Shown here: positions 1 through 27,217 of the stretch, one piece after another
How positions within the stretch are numbered: position 1 is the first letter of the stretch
Layout: each line of letters begins with the position of its first letter
DNA from: Desulfocapsa sulfexigens DSM 10523
GTDB taxonomy: Bacteria; Desulfobacterota; Desulfobulbia; Desulfobulbales; Desulfocapsaceae
DNA length: 32,000 bases
Reading direction: 5' to 3'
NCBI RefSeq assembly: GCF_000341395.1
Contig: NC_020304.1
Location: forward strand, 1,620,001-1,652,000
Position numbers and translations under genes: made by a program
Notes under the pieces: model-generated
Told to the model about the DNA's origin: nothing
The model's database searches: none
Seen by the model: only the letters and a program-made list of their open reading frames with translations

Positions 1-2702
1 AAAATAAAAGAGTAATTTTCTTTTTGATCCTGCTGTTGCTGATGTTTGGCAATTGGCTGTCCAATGGCTTATCACAACCATTGCAGGAGGTGAAAATCGG
101 TGTACTGGCCAAGCGGGGTCCTGAAATAGCTCTTAAAAAATGGTCGGCAACGGCGGATTACCTGTCCCAGGCACTTCCTGGGTATCGTTTTCAGATTGCA
201 GCCCTTGATTTTACGGAAATCCATGCAGCTGTTCAAGAAGGAACAATTGACTTTGTGCTCGCCAACTCGGCATTTTATGTGGAACTGGAAAAATTGTATG
301 GGGTCAAGCGGATAGCAACTCTTCTCAACCAGGACAGCTCCGGTCGGCAGACCACCATGTTTGGCGGGGTAATCCTGGCCCGCTCTGACAGAGAGGATAT
401 CCGGGAAATTCGGGATCTGAAAGGGAAAAGCTTTATGGCCGTGGAGCAGCGTTCTTTTGGGGGCTGGATCATGTGCTGGCGGGAGCTGCATCGAATGGGG
501 CTTGAGCCGGAAAAATTTTTCTCCTCACTGCAATTTGGCCAGACTCATGATGCTGTTGTGGCGGCAGTTCAAAGGGGAGACGTCGATGGAGGTACTGTCC
601 GGACTGACACTCTGGAGCGGATGGCTGAAGGGGGTGATATCAATCTGGATGATTTTCATATTCTCAATGAGCAGCAGGTGGAAAACTTTCCTTTCAGGAT
701 AAGTACTTCTCTTTACCCCGAATGGCCCTTCGCGGCCGTGAAAGACACTTCTCTTGACCTGGCTCGCCAGGTTGCCTCGGCTTTACTGGCTATGAAGGCA
801 GATGCCCCGGCAGCCATTGCAGGAAAAAGTGCCGGCTGGACCGTGGCACTGAATTACCAGCCCGTTCACGATTGCCTTATGGAGCTACGTATAGGACCCT
901 ATTCGGATTTTGGTTATTTCAGCTTTTATGATGTAGTGAAAAAGTACTGGCTGCAGCTTGTTCTTCTGTTCCTTTCTTTTACCATTGTTGTATTGACTTC
1001 TCTTTATATTCTCCGGCTCAATCGGAGGATCAGGCAGAAGAAAGAGGAAGTTGATGAGTTGAACAGAACTCTTGAGGCTAAGGTCCTGGAACGTACCAGA
1101 AAGGTAAACAGCCTTCTTGACCAGGAACTGTACCTTCGTGAAATAATGGAAACAATCGCTGAGGTGAATGGCCTCCTTATCTCAGCAACAGATATGGATA
1201 TGCTGTTACAGGAGGCTTGCCGGGTAATGGGGGAACATGGGCATTACGCCTATAGCTGGATCGGTTTGTTGGAAAACAATGTGGTGAGCAGAGTTTTTAC
1301 CAGCGATGACTCTGTCAGGTTTCCGAGTGATCCTCCTTATGATCCGATGGATACCGAGGATTCTTTTTCATTAACACCCGCTGCGCATTGTATGGCAAAG
1401 AACCAAACGGTGGTTGTGCGACAGAGCAGTACTGTCAGTACTGTTTCTCCCTGGCTGGATCTGGCTGAAGTTACGGAATATCAATCTGTTATCTCTTTGC
1501 CTCTTCGTGCCGATCAGTACAGCTCACCGTTGGGTGCTTTCAGTGTTTACACTCTGCGACTGGAGGGGTTTGAAGAGGAAGAAATTGCCATGCTCGAGGA
1601 GCTCGCCGGTGATATCGGTTTTGCTATCAATGCCTTCAGACAGAAAGAGCAGGTCGCAAAGCTAGAGAGAGAACGCACTGAAAATTACGAAGAGACTATT
1701 CTCTCCTTTGCCAATATTATTGATCACAGAGACACTTATACTGCCGGACATACCACACGGGTAGCCCATTACTGTAAGCTGCTCGCCAGGGAAATGGGCC
1801 TTGGAGAAGAAGAAACAGGGATCCTGCAAAAGGCAGCCGTTCTTCATGATATTGGTAAAATTGCCACGCCGGATAGTGTTCTGCTTAAACCCGGTAAGCT
1901 TTCCGACCTGGACTATGATCTTATTAAGCTCCATGCGCTGGCAGGATATGAGATACTCTCGGGTATCGGGATGTATGAAGATCTGGCAGTGATCATACGG
2001 CACCACCATGAGCGATATGACGGAATGGGCTACCCGGATCATCTTTGCGGGGAGGGCATCCCACTTCTATCCAGGGTTCTTACTGTCGCCGACGCTTTCG
2101 ATGCTATGACAACCAATCGTATTTACAAGCCAAGAAAGGCTATTTCTGAAGCGCTACAGGATTTGCAAAGACTTAGCGGAAGTCAGTTTGACCCCGCTGT
2201 TGTAGCTGCAGCCCTCAATGTGCTCAGGGATGTGGAGGTGCCAAAAGCCATTTCTCAGTTGCCAATAACACAGATGGAGCAACGCCGTTTTTCCTATTTT
2301 TTTAATGATAAATTGACAAGTTTATACAACGAAGATTACCTCCAGATTATTCTGCAAAACAATAAGGATCTCCATGAATACCACTGTTTGCATAGTATTC
2401 ACGTAAAAAAACTCCAGCAGTATAACCAGCATCAGGGATGGGAATCTGGGAACATTTTGATGCAGAGGATTGCACTTGAGCTGGAGGAAACCTTTCCTGA
2501 AACCCTGCTGTTTAGAGCACATGGCCAGTATTTTATAATAATTTCCAGAGAACATTTTGAAATCAATGCGGCAGAGCTGTCGTTTGCCTGTCTCAAGGAG
2601 ACCGGGGTGGCTTTTGAGCTGGATCACCTTGATTTGCAAAAAGACACTGTCTATACTATTAATAATATGGATAAATTTATAGTTCAGTCAGGGGAAGACT
2701 AG
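1..2702 (+). CDS. Multidomain signalling protein: periplasmic PhnD-like solute-binding domain, TM, GAF, HD-GYP phosphodiesterase, degenerate GGDEF
   Basis: ORF track gives 24..2702 (TTG). The frame stays open back to nt 3, and the residues there (NKRVIFFLILLLLMF...) look like a signal-peptide n/h-region, so the true start is probably just upstream of the window. HD-GYP signature: HDIGK ... HHHERYDGMGYP. The C-terminal LTSLYNEDYL ... FRAHGQYF looks like a GGDEF domain with the GGDEF motif replaced by HGQYF. Confidence 0.85.
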   Translation, partial: NKRVIFFLILLLLMFGNWLSNGLSQPLQEVKIGVLAKRGPEIALKKWSATADYLSQALPGYRFQIAALDFTEIHAAVQEGTIDFVLANSAFYVELEKLYGVKRIATLLNQDSSGRQTTMFGGVILARSDREDIREIRDLKGKSFMAVEQRSFGGWIMCWRELHRMGLEPEKFFSSLQFGQTHDAVVAAVQRGDVDGGTVRTDTLERMAEGGDINLDDFHILNEQQVENFPFRISTSLYPEWPFAAVKDTSLDLARQVASALLAMKADAPAAIAGKSAGWTVALNYQPVHDCLMELRIGPYSDFGYFSFYDVVKKYWLQLVLLFLSFTIVVLTSLYILRLNRRIRQKKEEVDELNRTLEAKVLERTRKVNSLLDQELYLREIMETIAEVNGLLISATDMDMLLQEACRVMGEHGHYAYSWIGLLENNVVSRVFTSDDSVRFPSDPPYDPMDTEDSFSLTPAAHCMAKNQTVVVRQSSTVSTVSPWLDLAEVTEYQSVISLPLRADQYSSPLGAFSVYTLRLEGFEEEEIAMLEELAGDIGFAINAFRQKEQVAKLERERTENYEETILSFANIIDHRDTYTAGHTTRVAHYCKLLAREMGLGEEETGILQKAAVLHDIGKIATPDSVLLKPGKLSDLDYDLIKLHALAGYEILSGIGMYEDLAVIIRHHHERYDGMGYPDHLCGEGIPLLSRVLTVADAFDAMTTNRIYKPRKAISEALQDLQRLSGSQFDPAVVAAALNVLRDVEVPKAISQLPITQMEQRRFSYFFNDKLTSLYNEDYLQIILQNNKDLHEYHCLHSIHVKKLQQYNQHQGWESGNILMQRIALELEETFPETLLFRAHGQYFIIISREHFEINAAELSFACLKETGVAFELDHLDLQKDTVYTINNMDKFIVQSGED

Positions 2703-2832: not shown

Positions 2833-3273
2833 ATGACGACATTTTCCAAAATTTTGCTGCCGATTGACTTTACCGAGTGTTCTACTGCTGTTTTGTCTCA
2901 CGCCAAACTGATGAAAGAGAAATTCGATGCTGATATCTATCTCCTTTACGCTATGCCGGGTTCCGAGCAGTACAAGGGGCTCAATATGGACTCTGAGTGG
3001 CTTGTCAATTATGGGCACTCTCTGAAACGGGAAGCAGAGAATGCCATGGAGAACTTTATTAATCAGCATATGCAGGGCTTTGAGCCGAAAAAGGCTGTGG
3101 TGAGAATAGGTGAAGTTGTTACAGAGACTGCCACCTATGTGGACGAAGAGGGTATTGATCTGATCATAACAGCGAGTCATGGGTGTCGCACCGCAGAGAA
3201 CAGGATATATGGTTCAATCGCCGAGGGAATAAGTCGTGAATCGGGGTGTCCGGTGATGATTGTTCACCCCTGA
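2833..3273 (+). CDS. Universal stress protein (UspA family)
   Basis: 146 aa. N-terminal KILLPIDFTE, C-terminal GSIAEGISRESGCPVMIVHP, both typical of Usp. GAGGAGGG Shine-Dalgarno 6 nt upstream of the ATG. Confidence 0.85.
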   Translation: MTTFSKILLPIDFTECSTAVLSHAKLMKEKFDADIYLLYAMPGSEQYKGLNMDSEWLVNYGHSLKREAENAMENFINQHMQGFEPKKAVVRIGEVVTETATYVDEEGIDLIITASHGCRTAENRIYGSIAEGISRESGCPVMIVHP

Positions 3274-25234: not shown

Positions 25235-25439
25235 GATGTCCTTTTTTGATGGTTAACTCGTCAGCTGTGTATTTTAAAAGGGAAAGTCTTCTTTGGCCTT
25301 TGAGGCCCAGCAAAAGCCAAAAGCAGATTTGATAATCATATAAAAGGCACCTCGGCCTGAAACTCAAGATCGAGCTTCAGGCCCAACCAAGATGGTTGTA
25401 TAATTGAGGTAGATAAACCATTACAAAGGAGGTGCCTTT

Positions 25440-26462
25440 ATGACTTCATTATACGCTGGAATCGATCTGCATTCAAACAATAGTCATTTAGCTATACTGG
25501 ATCAGGATGACAAACGAGTCTTTCACAAGAAACTTCCCAATATGGAAGATGTTCTGCTGGCTGAGCTCAAACCATTCCAAGATGAATTGTCTGCTGTTGT
25601 GGTGGAATCGACTTTCAATTGGTATTGGCTTGTAGACTGCCTGATGGAACAACGGTACGAGGTATTGCTGGCAAATCCTGCGGCCATGCTGCAGTACAAG
25701 GGGCTTAAGCATGTTGACGACAAACATGATGCCTTTTGGCTGGCCCATATGGCGAGGTTGGGCATTCTTCCACAGGGTTATATTTACCCTAAAGAGGAAA
25801 GACCTTTTCGTGATTTGCTGAGAAAAAGAGGTCATTTGGTTCGTCTGCGAACATCCGTAATCAACAGCCTGCAGGGGATCATCAGTCGAAACTGCGGCTG
25901 TAGCTTGAGCGGCAACAAGATGAAGCGCATGCGCGAGAATCATGTGGCGCCTCTTCTGACCGCTAATGAAGATCTTGCATTTAGTGGTGAAGTGTCCAGA
26001 GAGGTAATTGATTTTCTCGGACAGCAGATATCTCGGATTGAGCCTTTGGTGCTTGAGAAAGTACAACTACGCAAACCATTTCAATGCTTGCAGAGCATAC
26101 CGGGAGTTGGCAAAATCCTCTCTTTAACAATTATGCTGGAAACCGGACCAATCACTCGTTTCAAGAAGGTTGGTAATTTCACATCATATTGTCGCAAAGT
26201 ACCGACAACCTGGACAAGCAACAGCAAAAAGAAGGGCAAGGGAAACAGTAAAAACGGTAACAAGTATCTGGCCTGGACCTTTTCTGAGGCTGCGGAGTAT
26301 TCTCGACGCCACAGTGATCAAGCCAGAGCATTTTTCAATCGGAAAGCAGCCAGGACGAATAAATCGGTAGCCTACAGTGCGCTGGCGCACAAGTTGGCAA
26401 GGGCTTCTTACTACATGATGAGGGATCAGGTATGTTTTAACCCGAACAAGCTTTTTACCTAG
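25440..26462 (+). CDS. IS110-family (DEDD) transposase/recombinase
   Basis: 340 aa. N-terminal YAGIDLHS..., ESTFNWYWL, KHVDDKHDAFWLAHMARLGILP, C-terminal LQSIPGVGKILSLTIMLETG. AAGGAGG lies 8 nt upstream. Confidence 0.92.
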   Translation: MTSLYAGIDLHSNNSHLAILDQDDKRVFHKKLPNMEDVLLAELKPFQDELSAVVVESTFNWYWLVDCLMEQRYEVLLANPAAMLQYKGLKHVDDKHDAFWLAHMARLGILPQGYIYPKEERPFRDLLRKRGHLVRLRTSVINSLQGIISRNCGCSLSGNKMKRMRENHVAPLLTANEDLAFSGEVSREVIDFLGQQISRIEPLVLEKVQLRKPFQCLQSIPGVGKILSLTIMLETGPITRFKKVGNFTSYCRKVPTTWTSNSKKKGKGNSKNGNKYLAWTFSEAAEYSRRHSDQARAFFNRKAARTNKSVAYSALAHKLARASYYMMRDQVCFNPNKLFT

Positions 26463-26573
26463 GAATGGCCGAGACGGCGAACCTGAAAAGGGGTTGGTTG
26501 AAACCACCAGACTTGATTGGCAACCGTCTCGCCCTGTGATGATTTATTTTTACCGCCCATGGCGTGAACCACT
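26463..26573 (+). ncRNA. Candidate IS-encoded guide RNA (bridge/seek-RNA-like) in the 3' non-coding end of the IS
   Basis: The long hairpin 26467..26534 has a CGAGACGG/CCGTCTCG stem plus flanking pairs, enclosing a large interior. That interior holds AAGGGGTTGGTTGAAACCACCAG (26488..26510), which repeats the IS right end (26574..26597), and CCTGAAA, which matches the flanks. No expression evidence. Confidence 0.3.
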
Positions 26574-26884
26574 AAGGGGTTGGCTTACAACCACGAGGCC
26601 TGAAACAAACGCTTGGACACGTCATGGAACCAATAATTTTCTAGGCCCACAATTGTGGGTAGGGGCTGTATGGAAGACAAATGGCTGTTTCACTATGAGT
26701 TTTGAGGAATATTTGCCACACAGCCATTTGTTTCCTGCTGGTTCATAGATCCTGAGGCTGACTGGTGCGGTAATATTACCAACACGACAACTCTGAAATA
26801 TAGGGTGCGGAAGAAAGGAATAGTACAAAGACAGAGAGAGCAGCTGGACTTTGACTAAACCCTTGCAAGGGAAATGATCACTTT

Positions 26885-27217
26885 TTACTTAGTGGGTGAT
26901 CCCTTTATTTTTTCCTTAGCCTTGTAGCCATATTGAGTATCGCCAAATTGTTCTGATAAATATTTGTACAAACCAAGAGCTTCATCTTGTTTTTCGAGTT
27001 TTTCTAATGCAAGGGCTTTTAAAAATACAATTTCAGCTTTCATTTCTCGAGATGGCTCCTCATAGTTTTCGGCACGAGAAGTAAGTGCTAGCACGTCTTC
27101 ATAATTTCCATCATCATAACTACTGTATGCTTTACTCAGTGCACCTCTTTGAGCTAAAGTACTGCTACATCCGCTAATCAGTAGGGCTAACATAAAAAAA
27201 ACGATATTTTTTTTCAT
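26885..27217 (-). CDS. Small lipoprotein with TPR-like helical repeats
   Basis: MKKNIVFFMLALLISGC lipobox. The helical repeat composition (YEDVLALTSRA..., EALGLYKYL...) resembles YbgF/BamD-type TPR proteins. Confidence 0.7.
   Translation of the reverse strand: MKKNIVFFMLALLISGCSSTLAQRGALSKAYSSYDDGNYEDVLALTSRAENYEEPSREMKAEIVFLKALALEKLEKQDEALGLYKYLSEQFGDTQYGYKAKEKIKGSPTK

What the first reader, a model, noticed from the sequence alone, without database searches (positions are those of the whole stretch)
26463..26597. Candidate bridge/seek RNA in the 3' non-coding end of the IS: a hairpin whose interior repeats the IS end and flank sequences
- Immediately after the transposase stop codon is a long hairpin (26467..26534). 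Its closing stem is CGAGACGG/CCGTCTCG plus two further pairs across a bulge, and it has a large interior.
- The interior contains AAGGGGTTGGTTGAAACCACCAG (26488..26510).
- That sequence matches the element's right end, AAGGGGTTGGCTTACAACCACGAG (26574..26597). The first 10 nt are identical, then 11 of 13 after a 1-nt gap.
- Just 5' of it is CCTGAAA, which matches the GGCCTGAAAC arms in both flanks.
- Work published in 2024 on IS621 (bridge RNA) and on IS1111/IS110 elements (seekRNA) showed that these recombinases use an element-encoded non-coding RNA. Its internal loops base-pair with the target and with the donor ends. In IS1111-type elements this RNA is encoded downstream of the recombinase gene.
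- The self-similarity seen here is what such a guide would look like. It would imply an attC-like motif as the programmed target.
Basis: partly seen in the sequence, partly recalled or inferred. Interest (0 to 1): 0.65.

Follow-up and report, generated by a model that had tools for sequence, protein, structure and literature searches.

The report
Guide RNA gene of an insertion sequence

Summary
The hairpin (26467-26534) is real. So is the similarity of its interior to 26574-26597. That second copy is not the IS right end: it is the interior of a second, paralogous stem-loop (26557-26627). Both GGCCTGAAAC copies lie inside the element.

The true boundaries are TGA 25330-25332 on the left and TGA 26897-26899 on the right.

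In 45 distinct relatives both stems show compensatory changes (15 pairs; 0/500 shuffles). A covariance model finds the RNA directly after the transposase gene in 82 of 85 sources.

The two strands of loop 1 track the flanks of each element:
- The 3' strand equals the left flank plus TGA (168 vs 125.7±5.6 matches; 0/20000 shuffles).
- The 5' strand complements the right flank (p≈5e-4).

So loop 1 is a target-binding loop, arranged in the IS1111/seekRNA order. The target is ...AGAYYTGA|CCCCTT..., not attC.

I could not assign a substrate to loop 2. A conserved block further downstream co-varies with the right end instead (0/50000 shuffles).

The window copy has a mutated block and lacks about 35 bp of the canonical right end, so it is probably immobile.

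Verdict: a new member of a known kind.

The parts
25320..25332 (+). Left target half-site plus core (AAAGCAGATT + TGA). The left junction lies after 25332.
   Evidence: Conservation with relatives starts at TGATAATCAT. Flanks differ between copies in one genome. L014 carries an uninterrupted copy of its target beside the filled one.
25333..25353 (+). Left end of the IS (TAATCAT...) with the subterminal inverted repeat ATATAAAAGGCACC at 25338-51.
   Evidence: It is nearly invariant in about 70 relatives. It is the inverted repeat of GGCCTTTTAAT near the right end of relatives.
25354..25383 (+). Variable hairpin inside the left end.
   Evidence: Inverted repeat I8. Relatives have other hairpins at this place.
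25429..25439 (+). RBS region GAGGTGCCTTT, perfectly complementary to the left subterminal repeat at 25343-53.
   Evidence: Inverted repeat I7, 11/11. The same pairing is present in relatives.
25440..26462 (+). IS110-family DEDD recombinase gene (340 aa).
   Evidence: PF01548 and PF02371. NF033542 'IS110 family RNA-guided transposase', 192 bits against a cut-off of 140. 34.6% identical to ISGsu4.
26467..26534 (+). Stem-loop 1, the target-binding loop (closing stem 26467-77 / 26524-34).
   Evidence: 8 of 10 stem pairs show compensatory changes in 45 distinct relatives. The MFE fold contains the stem.
26484..26493 (+). 5' guide of loop 1 (TGAAAAGGGG). It is complementary to the top strand of the right flank.
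   Evidence: AAAGGGG pairs with TCCCTTT 26900-06 (one G·T). Family-wide, the reverse complement tracks the right flank: 236 vs 213±6.3 matches, 10/20000 shuffles. In L057, 10 of 11 positions match.
26493..26507 (+). Invariant inner hairpin of loop 1 (G-TGG ... CCA-C).
   Evidence: 98.9% paired with no variation. The same motif occurs in loop 2.
26508..26516 (+). 3' guide of loop 1 (CAGACTTGA). It has the same sense as the left flank plus core, so it would pair with the bottom strand.
   Evidence: 8 of 9 positions equal 25324-32. Family-wide 168 vs 125.7±5.6 matches, 0/20000 shuffles. 22 mismatches are of wobble type against 5 of the reverse type. A column-by-column diagonal gives z 2.9-6.1.
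26557..26627 (+). Stem-loop 2, a paralogue of loop 1 (stem 26557-66 / 26618-27). Its substrate is unresolved.
   Evidence: 7 of 10 stem pairs are compensatory. Fold z = -3.4. Its guide-equivalent positions do not track flanks or ends.
26628..26810 (+). Conserved structured region downstream of loop 2: hairpins at 26646-59, 26677-731 and 26769-80, and the conserved strands AACC..TTTTCT / GAAAT..GG. It is a candidate multi-branch donor-recognition domain.
   Evidence: Alignments A2 and A3 and the RNAalifold consensus, with 7 compensatory pairs in a 16-member subgroup. Assignment to the same RNA is an inference.
26748..26770 (+). Degenerate copy of the conserved block CCTGATGGGTGACTGGTGC (here CCTGA-GGCTGAC...). 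In relatives this block has the same sense as the right-end terminus.
   Evidence: The block co-varies with the right-end terminus: 198/208 matches vs 180.3±2.1, 0/50000 shuffles. The last base takes A, C, G and T in both. 8 of 10 mismatches are of wobble type. All other detected family members have the ATGGGTG core intact or co-changed with their own right end.
26880..26899 (+). Truncated right end (ACTTTTTACTTAGTGGG + core TGA 26897-99).
   Evidence: Relatives carry about 35 more bp here, including CTTGACA and GGCCTTTTAAT. The same truncation is in independent assemblies L001/L002.
26900..26915 (+). Right target half-site (TCCCTTTATTTTTTCC).
   Evidence: It matches the family's right-flank consensus CCCCTT(T).

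Best explanation
The region is the 5' part of the guide RNA (bridge RNA / seekRNA) of an ISGsu4-like IS110-family insertion sequence. The element spans 25333-26899 and has TGA as its core at both junctions.

**How it most likely works**
- The RNA is transcribed with or after the recombinase gene.
- Stem-loop 1 (26467-26534) is the target-binding loop. Its 3' strand (CAGACTTGA) pairs with the bottom strand of the left target half plus core. Its 5' strand (..AAAGGGG) pairs with the top strand of the right target half. This is the order reported for IS1111-type seekRNAs.
- These pairings direct insertion after the TGA of sites of the form AGAYYTGA|CCCCTT.
- Stem-loop 2 (26557-26627) is a conserved duplicate of the same scaffold. 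With loop 1 it gives a unit of about 160 nt, like the 'long seekRNA'. What it binds is not established.
- Recognition of the element's own right end most likely resides in a conserved block about 130-160 nt further downstream, within a multi-branch domain.

**Shown versus inferred**
- Shown: the anatomy, the structural covariation, guide-flank covariation, and block-to-right-end covariation.
- Inferred: that an RNA is made, that it binds the recombinase, and that the block acts as RNA.

**State of this copy**
The window copy has an intact gene and intact loops. However, its block is mutated, and it lacks the right subterminal repeat and the -35 box of the junction promoter. It is probably no longer mobile.
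For: **Recombinase family:**

**True ends**
- Flank divergence among 4+4 copies in two genomes.
- An empty site beside the filled site in L014.

**Structure**
- 96.7% of cells are paired, and 15 pairs have changes on both sides.
- 0/500 shuffles reach this, and slid controls give 32-46% paired. Many G·U pairs fix the strand.
- Model R1 hits 82 of 85 sources, always right after the recombinase gene on its strand. About 35 of these loci were not used to build the model. There is one hit in the window, at 170.7 bits.

**Guides**
- Left flank vs loop-1 3' strand: 168 vs 125.7±5.6 matches (0/20000).
- Right flank vs the reverse complement of the loop-1 5' strand: 236 vs 213±6.3 (10/20000).
- Wobble asymmetry: 22 vs 5.
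- Diagonal z-scores of 2.9-6.1.
- Examples of redirected elements: L013, L006/L012, L016, L057.

**Right-end block:**

**Size and order** agree with published seekRNAs: short form 82-96 nt, long form 148-172 nt, top-strand match lying 5' (PMC11187229; PMC13604230).
Against: - There are no expression or binding data.
- Rfam has no matching family, and the published bridge-RNA models could not be run.
- Right-flank tracking is modest beyond the CCCC.
- The window's own 3' guide has one non-wobble mismatch to its flank.
- Loop 2 has no demonstrable substrate, and no guide for the left end was found. The donor side of the mechanism is therefore incomplete.
- The recombinase is only 23-25% identical to ISPa11/ISEc11.
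- Covariation counts include related sequences. Rows were de-duplicated, but they are not phylogenetically independent.
Confidence: 0.85

Rival explanations
1. Classic two-loop bridge RNA, as in IS621: loop 1 binds the target and loop 2 is the donor-binding loop that reads the right-end/left-end junction of the circular intermediate.
For: - There are two paralogous internal loops in tandem, both with covarying stems.
- The base just 5' of the invariant TG in loop 2 tracks the flank (z 5.5), loosely reminiscent of handshake positions (PMC13626964).
- In the window, L004 and L005, the loop-2 3' strand pairs with left-end positions +24..33 at 29 of 30 positions.
Against: - No recurrent complementarity of 8 nt or more (wobble allowed) to the junction ±40 nt.
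- No column concordance with either end.
- The left-end hairpin match is not family-wide (p = 0.41).
- The loop-2 guide positions vary although the donor termini are nearly invariant.
- A different segment co-varies with the right end.
Confidence: 0.15
2. The stem-loops are ordinary 3'-UTR elements of the recombinase mRNA (terminator, stabiliser or attenuator) with no guide role.
For: They sit immediately after the stop codon. Hairpin 1 alone is not thermodynamically exceptional (z = -1.7).
Against: - No T-run follows either hairpin, and the terminator scan gives nothing here.
- The unpaired loop bases co-vary with the DNA flanking each element. A terminator would not do that.
Confidence: 0.03
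3. DNA-level reading: the repeated GGGGTTGG..AACCAC units and the ATGGGTGA block are repeated recombinase-binding sites or alternative ends, not RNA.
For: - The units are repeated, and the block is identical in sense to the right end.
- Some relatives carry tandem duplications of the right terminus (L015, L020, L074).
- ISPpu9 uses alternative ends (PMC12288879).
Against: - The stems around the units keep pairing through compensatory and G·U changes, which only matters for a single strand of one polarity.
- Block/right-end mismatches are all of one wobble polarity: 8 of wobble type and 0 of the reverse type.
Confidence: 0.07
4. The flank similarity is an artefact of boundary placement: AGAYYTGA belongs to the element, so the loop merely repeats an IS end.
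For: TGA, and often CCTGA, is shared by all copies within a genome.
Against: - The matching positions -3 to -5 differ between copies in one genome while the element is identical (L026-L030).
- L014 and L066 carry uninterrupted target copies next to the insertion.
Confidence: 0.03

Closest known systems
seekRNA of IS1111-type elements (ISEc11, ISPa11, ISKpn4, ISPst6; Siddiquee et al. 2024, PMC11187229)
   Same: - The RNA is encoded in the non-coding region downstream of the recombinase gene.
- It is a stem-loop whose loop carries a top-strand match lying 5' of a bottom-strand match to the target.
- A short unit (about 70-80 nt here) sits inside a longer one of about 160 nt.
- The element has subterminal inverted repeats.
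- A junction promoter is formed by the -35 box in the right end and the -10 box in the left end (seen in relatives).
- Natural redirection occurs through changes in the loop bases.
   Different: - The recombinase is only 23-25% identical to ISPa11/ISEc11. It groups with ISGsu4, which is itself 15-20% identical to IS1111 members in that paper's matrix.
- The non-coding region is much longer (437 nt from the stop codon to the right end in this truncated copy) and holds further conserved structure.
- The target is different.
- Nothing here has been tested experimentally.
IS621 / IS110 bridge RNA (Durrant et al. 2024, PMC11208160; Hiraizumi et al. 2024, 2026)
   Same: - The recombinase is of the same type (DEDD plus Tnp domains). 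The IS621 structure is the best PDB match.
- The RNA has internal loops that read both strands of the DNA around a short core.
- The core is present at both junctions.
   Different: - The RNA lies in the right end, not the left end.
- The order of the guides is reversed.
- The core is TGA rather than CT.
- The second loop does not read the donor junction in the tests run here.
- The candidate donor guide lies in a multi-branch region. Durrant et al. note this for many IS1111 orthologues.
IS1111-attC group (ISPa21, ISKpn4, ISPst6) targeting integron attC sites
   Same: The left half of their targets (CGATTTGAA*CG) resembles AGATTTGA here.
   Different: The right half and the context differ. Here it is CCCCTT..., between ordinary genes or in arrays of GCAAGACCTGACCCC repeats. 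No attC-like site is seen at this insertion.

Membership tests
IS110-family RNA-guided recombination system (bridge RNA / seekRNA) | DEDD (RuvC-like) plus Tnp-domain recombinase encoded in the element | tested here: met
   PF01548 E = 3.5e-17 and PF02371 E = 2.8e-15. NF033542 scores 192 bits against a cut-off of 140. IS621 8wt6 E = 5e-12.
IS110-family RNA-guided recombination system (bridge RNA / seekRNA) | Conserved structured non-coding RNA in a non-coding end, on the recombinase strand | tested here: met
   15 compensatory pairs, 0/500 shuffles. The covariance model hits 82 of 85 sources just after the gene.
IS110-family RNA-guided recombination system (bridge RNA / seekRNA) | [quoted passage not shown] | tested here: met
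   Permutation tests and wobble asymmetry. Diagonal concordance.
IS110-family RNA-guided recombination system (bridge RNA / seekRNA) | RNA segments that match the element's own ends (donor recognition) | tested here: inconclusive
   A right-end-matching block co-varies with the right end. It can also pair with the left-end start at 5-7 of 7 positions with wobble, which is not discriminating. Loop 2 shows no match.
IS110-family RNA-guided recombination system (bridge RNA / seekRNA) | Insertion without a target duplication other than the shared core | tested here: met
   TGA is at both junctions, and L014 shows an empty site beside the filled site.
IS110-family RNA-guided recombination system (bridge RNA / seekRNA) | The RNA is expressed, binds the recombinase and is required for transposition | not testable with these tools
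   No transcript or biochemical data are available.
IS110-family RNA-guided recombination system (bridge RNA / seekRNA) | Junction promoter reconstituted in the circular form | tested here: not met
   Relatives have TTGACA, then 18 nt (my count), then GATAAT across the right-end/left-end junction. The window copy has lost the -35 part.
IS1111 subgroup | Subterminal inverted repeats of 7-17 bp | tested here: inconclusive
   The left repeat is present (25338-51). The right repeat GGCCTTTTAAT is present in relatives but deleted in the window copy.
IS1111 subgroup | Long non-coding region downstream of the gene; top-strand match 5' of bottom-strand match | tested here: met
   The criterion is taken from PMC11187229.
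IS1111 subgroup | Recombinase clusters with IS1111-type transposases | tested here: not met
   23-25% identity to ISPa11/ISEc11 against 34.6% to ISGsu4. ISGsu4 is 15-20% identical to IS1111 members. No tree was built.
attC-targeting IS1111 elements | Insertion into an integron attC site | tested here: not met
   The flanks are AAAGCAGATTTGA|TCCCTTTATT, between a TPR-protein gene and a small ORF. The family target is AGAYYTGA|CCCCTT.
Rfam families | Match to any curated RNA family | tested here: not met
   The best E-value is 1, far below the gathering scores.

The most novel reading that the evidence does not exclude
In this ISGsu4-like clade the guide RNA would be a three-part molecule: a programmable target loop, a second paralogous loop that reads neither flank nor donor junction, and a separate multi-branch module that reads the right end. 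Loop 2 would then have a role not described for bridge or seek RNAs. It might bind a second copy of the repeated target, or govern excision versus insertion. The third core base would be set independently for donor and target.
Probability: 0.2. Interest if true: 0.6.

Novelty: new member of a known kind. Interest (0 to 1): 0.35.

Why it matters
It adds a well-documented natural family, more than 80 elements across Desulfobacterota, Nitrospirota, Geobacter relatives and Gammaproteobacteria, to the RNA-guided recombinases. The family has clear examples of natural retargeting and a defined target motif.

The unassigned second loop and the separate right-end-matching block show where the donor-recognition rules of non-IS621 elements are still open. 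That matters for engineering these compact recombinases.

For annotating this genome, the result is simply one IS copy, probably immobile, inserted at the 3' end of a small ORF.

Tried and rejected
- **Rfam scan**: nothing found.
- **Exact search for the empty site** AAAGCAGATTTGATCCCTTTATT in metagenomes: none found, so the window's own pre-insertion site is not directly shown.
- **Loop 2 as donor loop**, all negative family-wide:
  - 7-mer self-matches
  - wobble-tolerant 8-mer complementarity to the junction
  - left-end hairpin hypothesis (p = 0.41)
  - column concordance
- **Reverse complement of the loop-2 5' strand versus the right-end terminus** (TTTAATGG): 8 of 8 in the window but 3-7 of 8 elsewhere, while the right end is invariant. 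Rejected as a guide.
- **The linker between the loops as a left-end guide** (GGUUAUCG / AUGAUU): present in some clades only, and it does not follow left-end variants.
- **RNAalifold on the whole right-end region**: uninformative because of length variation. Only a subgroup gave a consensus.
- **Promoter/terminator scan**: nothing above background.
- **GGCCTGAAAC as a target duplication**: rejected, because both copies are internal.

Full report
**1. What is at the coordinates**

The ORF 25440-26462 (+) encodes a 340-aa protein.
- It carries PF01548 and PF02371.
- It passes NCBIfam NF033542, 'IS110 family RNA-guided transposase' (192 bits, cut-off 140).
- Its best solved relatives are the IS621 and ISCro4 recombinases.
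- It is 34.6% identical to ISGsu4, but only 23-25% identical to ISPa11 and ISEc11 (sequences from the supplement of PMC11187229).

Right after the stop codon lies the inverted repeat GGCCGAGACGG 26467-77 / CCGTCTCGCCC 26524-34. The shared motif GGGGTTGG-N3-6-AACCAC occurs twice in the window, against 0.01 expected.

Folding energy alone is unremarkable for the whole stretch (z = -0.8) and for hairpin 1 (z = -1.7). It is clearer for a second hairpin at 26554-26630 (z = -3.4, 0/200 shuffles).

**2. The element's ends are elsewhere**

I fetched 80 loci encoding relatives from reference genomes, mostly Desulfobulbaceae/Desulfocapsaceae, Geobacter relatives, Nitrospirota and some Gammaproteobacteria.
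- On the left, similarity starts at TGATAATCATATAAAAGGCACCTC. In the window, TGA is at 25330-32.
- On the right, it runs to ...GGCCTTTTAATGGGTGA.
- In two genomes with four copies each, the copies are identical between these points and the flanks differ outside them.
- L014 has an uninterrupted copy of its target (GCAAGACCTGACCCTTATTTTG) just upstream of the filled one. This shows that TGA is the shared core.

In the window the right junction is GGGTGA|TCCCTTTATT, with TGA at 26897-99. Both GGCCTGAAAC copies are therefore internal. One is an arm of a variable hairpin in the left end. The other lies in the second RNA loop.

**3. Two paralogous stem-loops with covarying stems**

It has the same internal layout as the first: GAACC, a few variable bases, GGGG, an invariant small hairpin, variable bases ending in TG, then TTGG.A.

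On an alignment of 45 distinct sequences:
- 96.7% of cells form pairs.
- 15 of 28 pairs have changes on both sides: 8 of 10 in stem 1 and 7 of 10 in stem 2.
- No shuffle of 500 reaches the observed values.
- Sliding the partner by 1-3 columns drops pairing to 32-46%.
- G·U pairs are frequent, which fixes the strand as that of the gene.

A covariance model built from this alignment finds the RNA in 82 of 85 sources.
- It always starts at or just after the stop codon, on the same strand.
- About 35 of these loci were not used to build the model.
- The window has a single hit, 26462-26635, at 170.7 bits.

**4. Loop 1 reads the insertion site**

The bases just 5' of the invariant TGA in the 3' strand of loop 1 equal the bases just 5' of the left junction.
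- Window: CAGACTTGA versus CAGATTTGA.
- L013: CATATCTGA versus CATACCTGA.
- L006/L012: GGATTTGA versus GGACTTGA.
- L016: GAGAACTGA in both.
- Over 33 distinct pairs there are 168 matches of 264, against 125.7±5.6 when flanks are shuffled (0/20000).
- With one row per guide, the figures are 129 versus 92.7±5.1.
- Mismatches are mostly guide-G opposite flank-A, or guide-T opposite flank-C (22). The reverse types number 5. This is what RNA pairing with the bottom strand would tolerate.

The reverse complement of the 5' strand tracks the right flank more weakly.
- 236 versus 213±6.3 matches (10/20000).
- For positions 5-10 alone, 96 versus 76.9±6.1.
- The clearest single case is L057, with CCCACCTAGAT versus CCCACCTAAAT.

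A column-by-column scan on 62 insertions recovers a clean diagonal for the 3' strand (z = 2.9-6.1).

In L026-L030 the matching positions differ between copies of one identical element. They are therefore flank, not IS.

Four further elements found through the window's own 3' guide fit the same pattern.

The order (top-strand match lying 5', bottom-strand match lying 3') and the sizes agree with published values. One loop is about 70-80 nt and both loops together about 160 nt. IS1111-type seekRNAs are reported as 82-96 nt (short form) and 148-172 nt (long form) (PMC11187229; table in PMC13604230).

**5. The target**

Left flanks end in ..AGAYYTGA. Right flanks begin with CCCC, often followed by TT(T)AT.

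In L066 the insertion sits in an array of GGCAAAACGCAAGACCTGACCCCAACACAC repeats. L072 has an inverted copy nearby.

Nothing suggests an integron attC site. The window insertion lies between a TPR-protein gene and a 110-aa ORF.

**6. Loop 2 and the donor side**

Loop 2 is as conserved as loop 1, but I could not find what it reads.
- Its guide-equivalent positions do not follow the left flank (p≈0.05) or the right flank (p≈0.8). Only the base next to TG follows the left flank (z = 5.5).
- They show no recurrent complementarity to the right-end/TGA/left-end junction.
- They show no concordance with end columns.
- In the window and its two closest relatives with a left end, the loop-2 3' strand pairs with left-end positions +24..33 at 29 of 30 positions (wobble allowed). 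This does not hold across the family.

By contrast, the most conserved block of the whole right-hand non-coding region is CCTGATGGGTGACTGGTGC, 130-160 nt after loop 2. It has the same sense as the right terminus TAATGGGTGA and changes with it.
- ATGAGTGA in L066 and L067.
- AGGGGTGA in L080.
- A last base of C, T or G in seven other types.
- Over 26 distinct types there are 198 of 208 matches, against 180.3±2.1 in shuffles (0/50000).
- 8 of 10 mismatches are block-T opposite end-C, or block-G opposite end-A. None is of the reverse type.

RNAalifold on a 16-member subgroup places the block in a multi-branch domain with three covarying hairpins. This fits the remark by Durrant et al. that many IS1111 orthologues have donor-binding bases in a multi-loop (PMC11208160).

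The same block can also pair with the left-end start at 5-7 of 7 positions if wobble is allowed. This does not discriminate between elements. I found no separate guide for the left end.

That the block acts as RNA is an inference.

**7. State of the window copy**

All relatives have CTTGACA about 22 nt from the right terminus. With GATAAT across the junction, this would form a promoter in the circular form (18-nt spacer by my count).

The window copy lacks about 35 bp here, including this box and the right subterminal repeat. The deletion appears to lie between two TAATGGG-like repeats.

Its block reads CCTGA-GGCTGAC. All other detected family members have the ATGGGTG core intact, or co-changed with their own right end.

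Independent assemblies (L001, L002) show the same arrangement.

The gene and both loops are intact, but the copy is probably unable to excise normally. This is an inference.

**8. Comparison and verdict**

The feature works like a seekRNA/bridge RNA and meets the tested defining features on the target side.

It is not a close member of the IS1111 clade by protein similarity. Its donor side is only partly resolved.

Guide RNAs in IS110/IS1111 elements have been known since 2024 and are predicted in most catalogued members. This is therefore a new member of a known kind.

Noticed in passing
window 25343-25353 and 25429-25439: The left subterminal repeat AAAGGCACCTC is perfectly complementary to the ribosome-binding region GAGGTGCCTTT just before the ATG. 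The same pairing is kept in relatives. Transcripts that start upstream of the repeat (read-through or junction-promoter transcripts) could have the RBS sequestered. A conserved TATAAT at 25399-404 lies between the two.
   Followed up: partly
window 26880-26899 and 26748-26770: This IS copy lacks about 35 bp of the canonical right end (the -35 box and the right subterminal repeat). It also carries a 1-nt deletion plus a substitution in an otherwise highly conserved block. It is probably a stranded copy.
   Followed up: yes
window 26885-27217 (- strand): The 110-aa ORF ends inside the IS: its last codons (..S-P-T-K-stop) are read from the core and the right end. Without the insertion, the frame would run on for about 23 codons into the left flank. 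The insertion may therefore have changed this protein's C-terminus.
   Followed up: no
L066 about 2940-3140; L014 upstream of 1387; L072 upstream of 1406: The target motif (GCAAGACCTGACCCC...) occurs as tandem or inverted repeats next to the insertions. This suggests that the family targets a REP-like repeated element.
   Followed up: partly
L015 about 1539-1582; L020; L074 about 1554-1592: The last 19-22 bp of the right end (for example CAAGGGGCCTTTTAATGGGTGA) are tandemly duplicated in three unrelated elements.
   Followed up: no
L026-L030, 2520-2805: This element carries about 285 extra bases between the stop codon and the guide RNA. So the RNA need not abut the gene.
   Followed up: no
L053, L016, L019, L038, L043, L048, right junctions: The third base of the 'core' at the right junction can be A, C, G or T and follows the internal block. 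The left junction keeps TGA, as in loop 1. Donor and target cores therefore seem to be specified separately, and the exchange point lies 3' of the core on the top strand.
   Followed up: partly
window 26677-26731: A long perfect-stem hairpin (ACAAATGGCTGT / ACAGCCATTTGT) is present in the closest relatives with compensatory changes. It is absent or short in others. It looks like a variable arm of the downstream domain.
   Followed up: no
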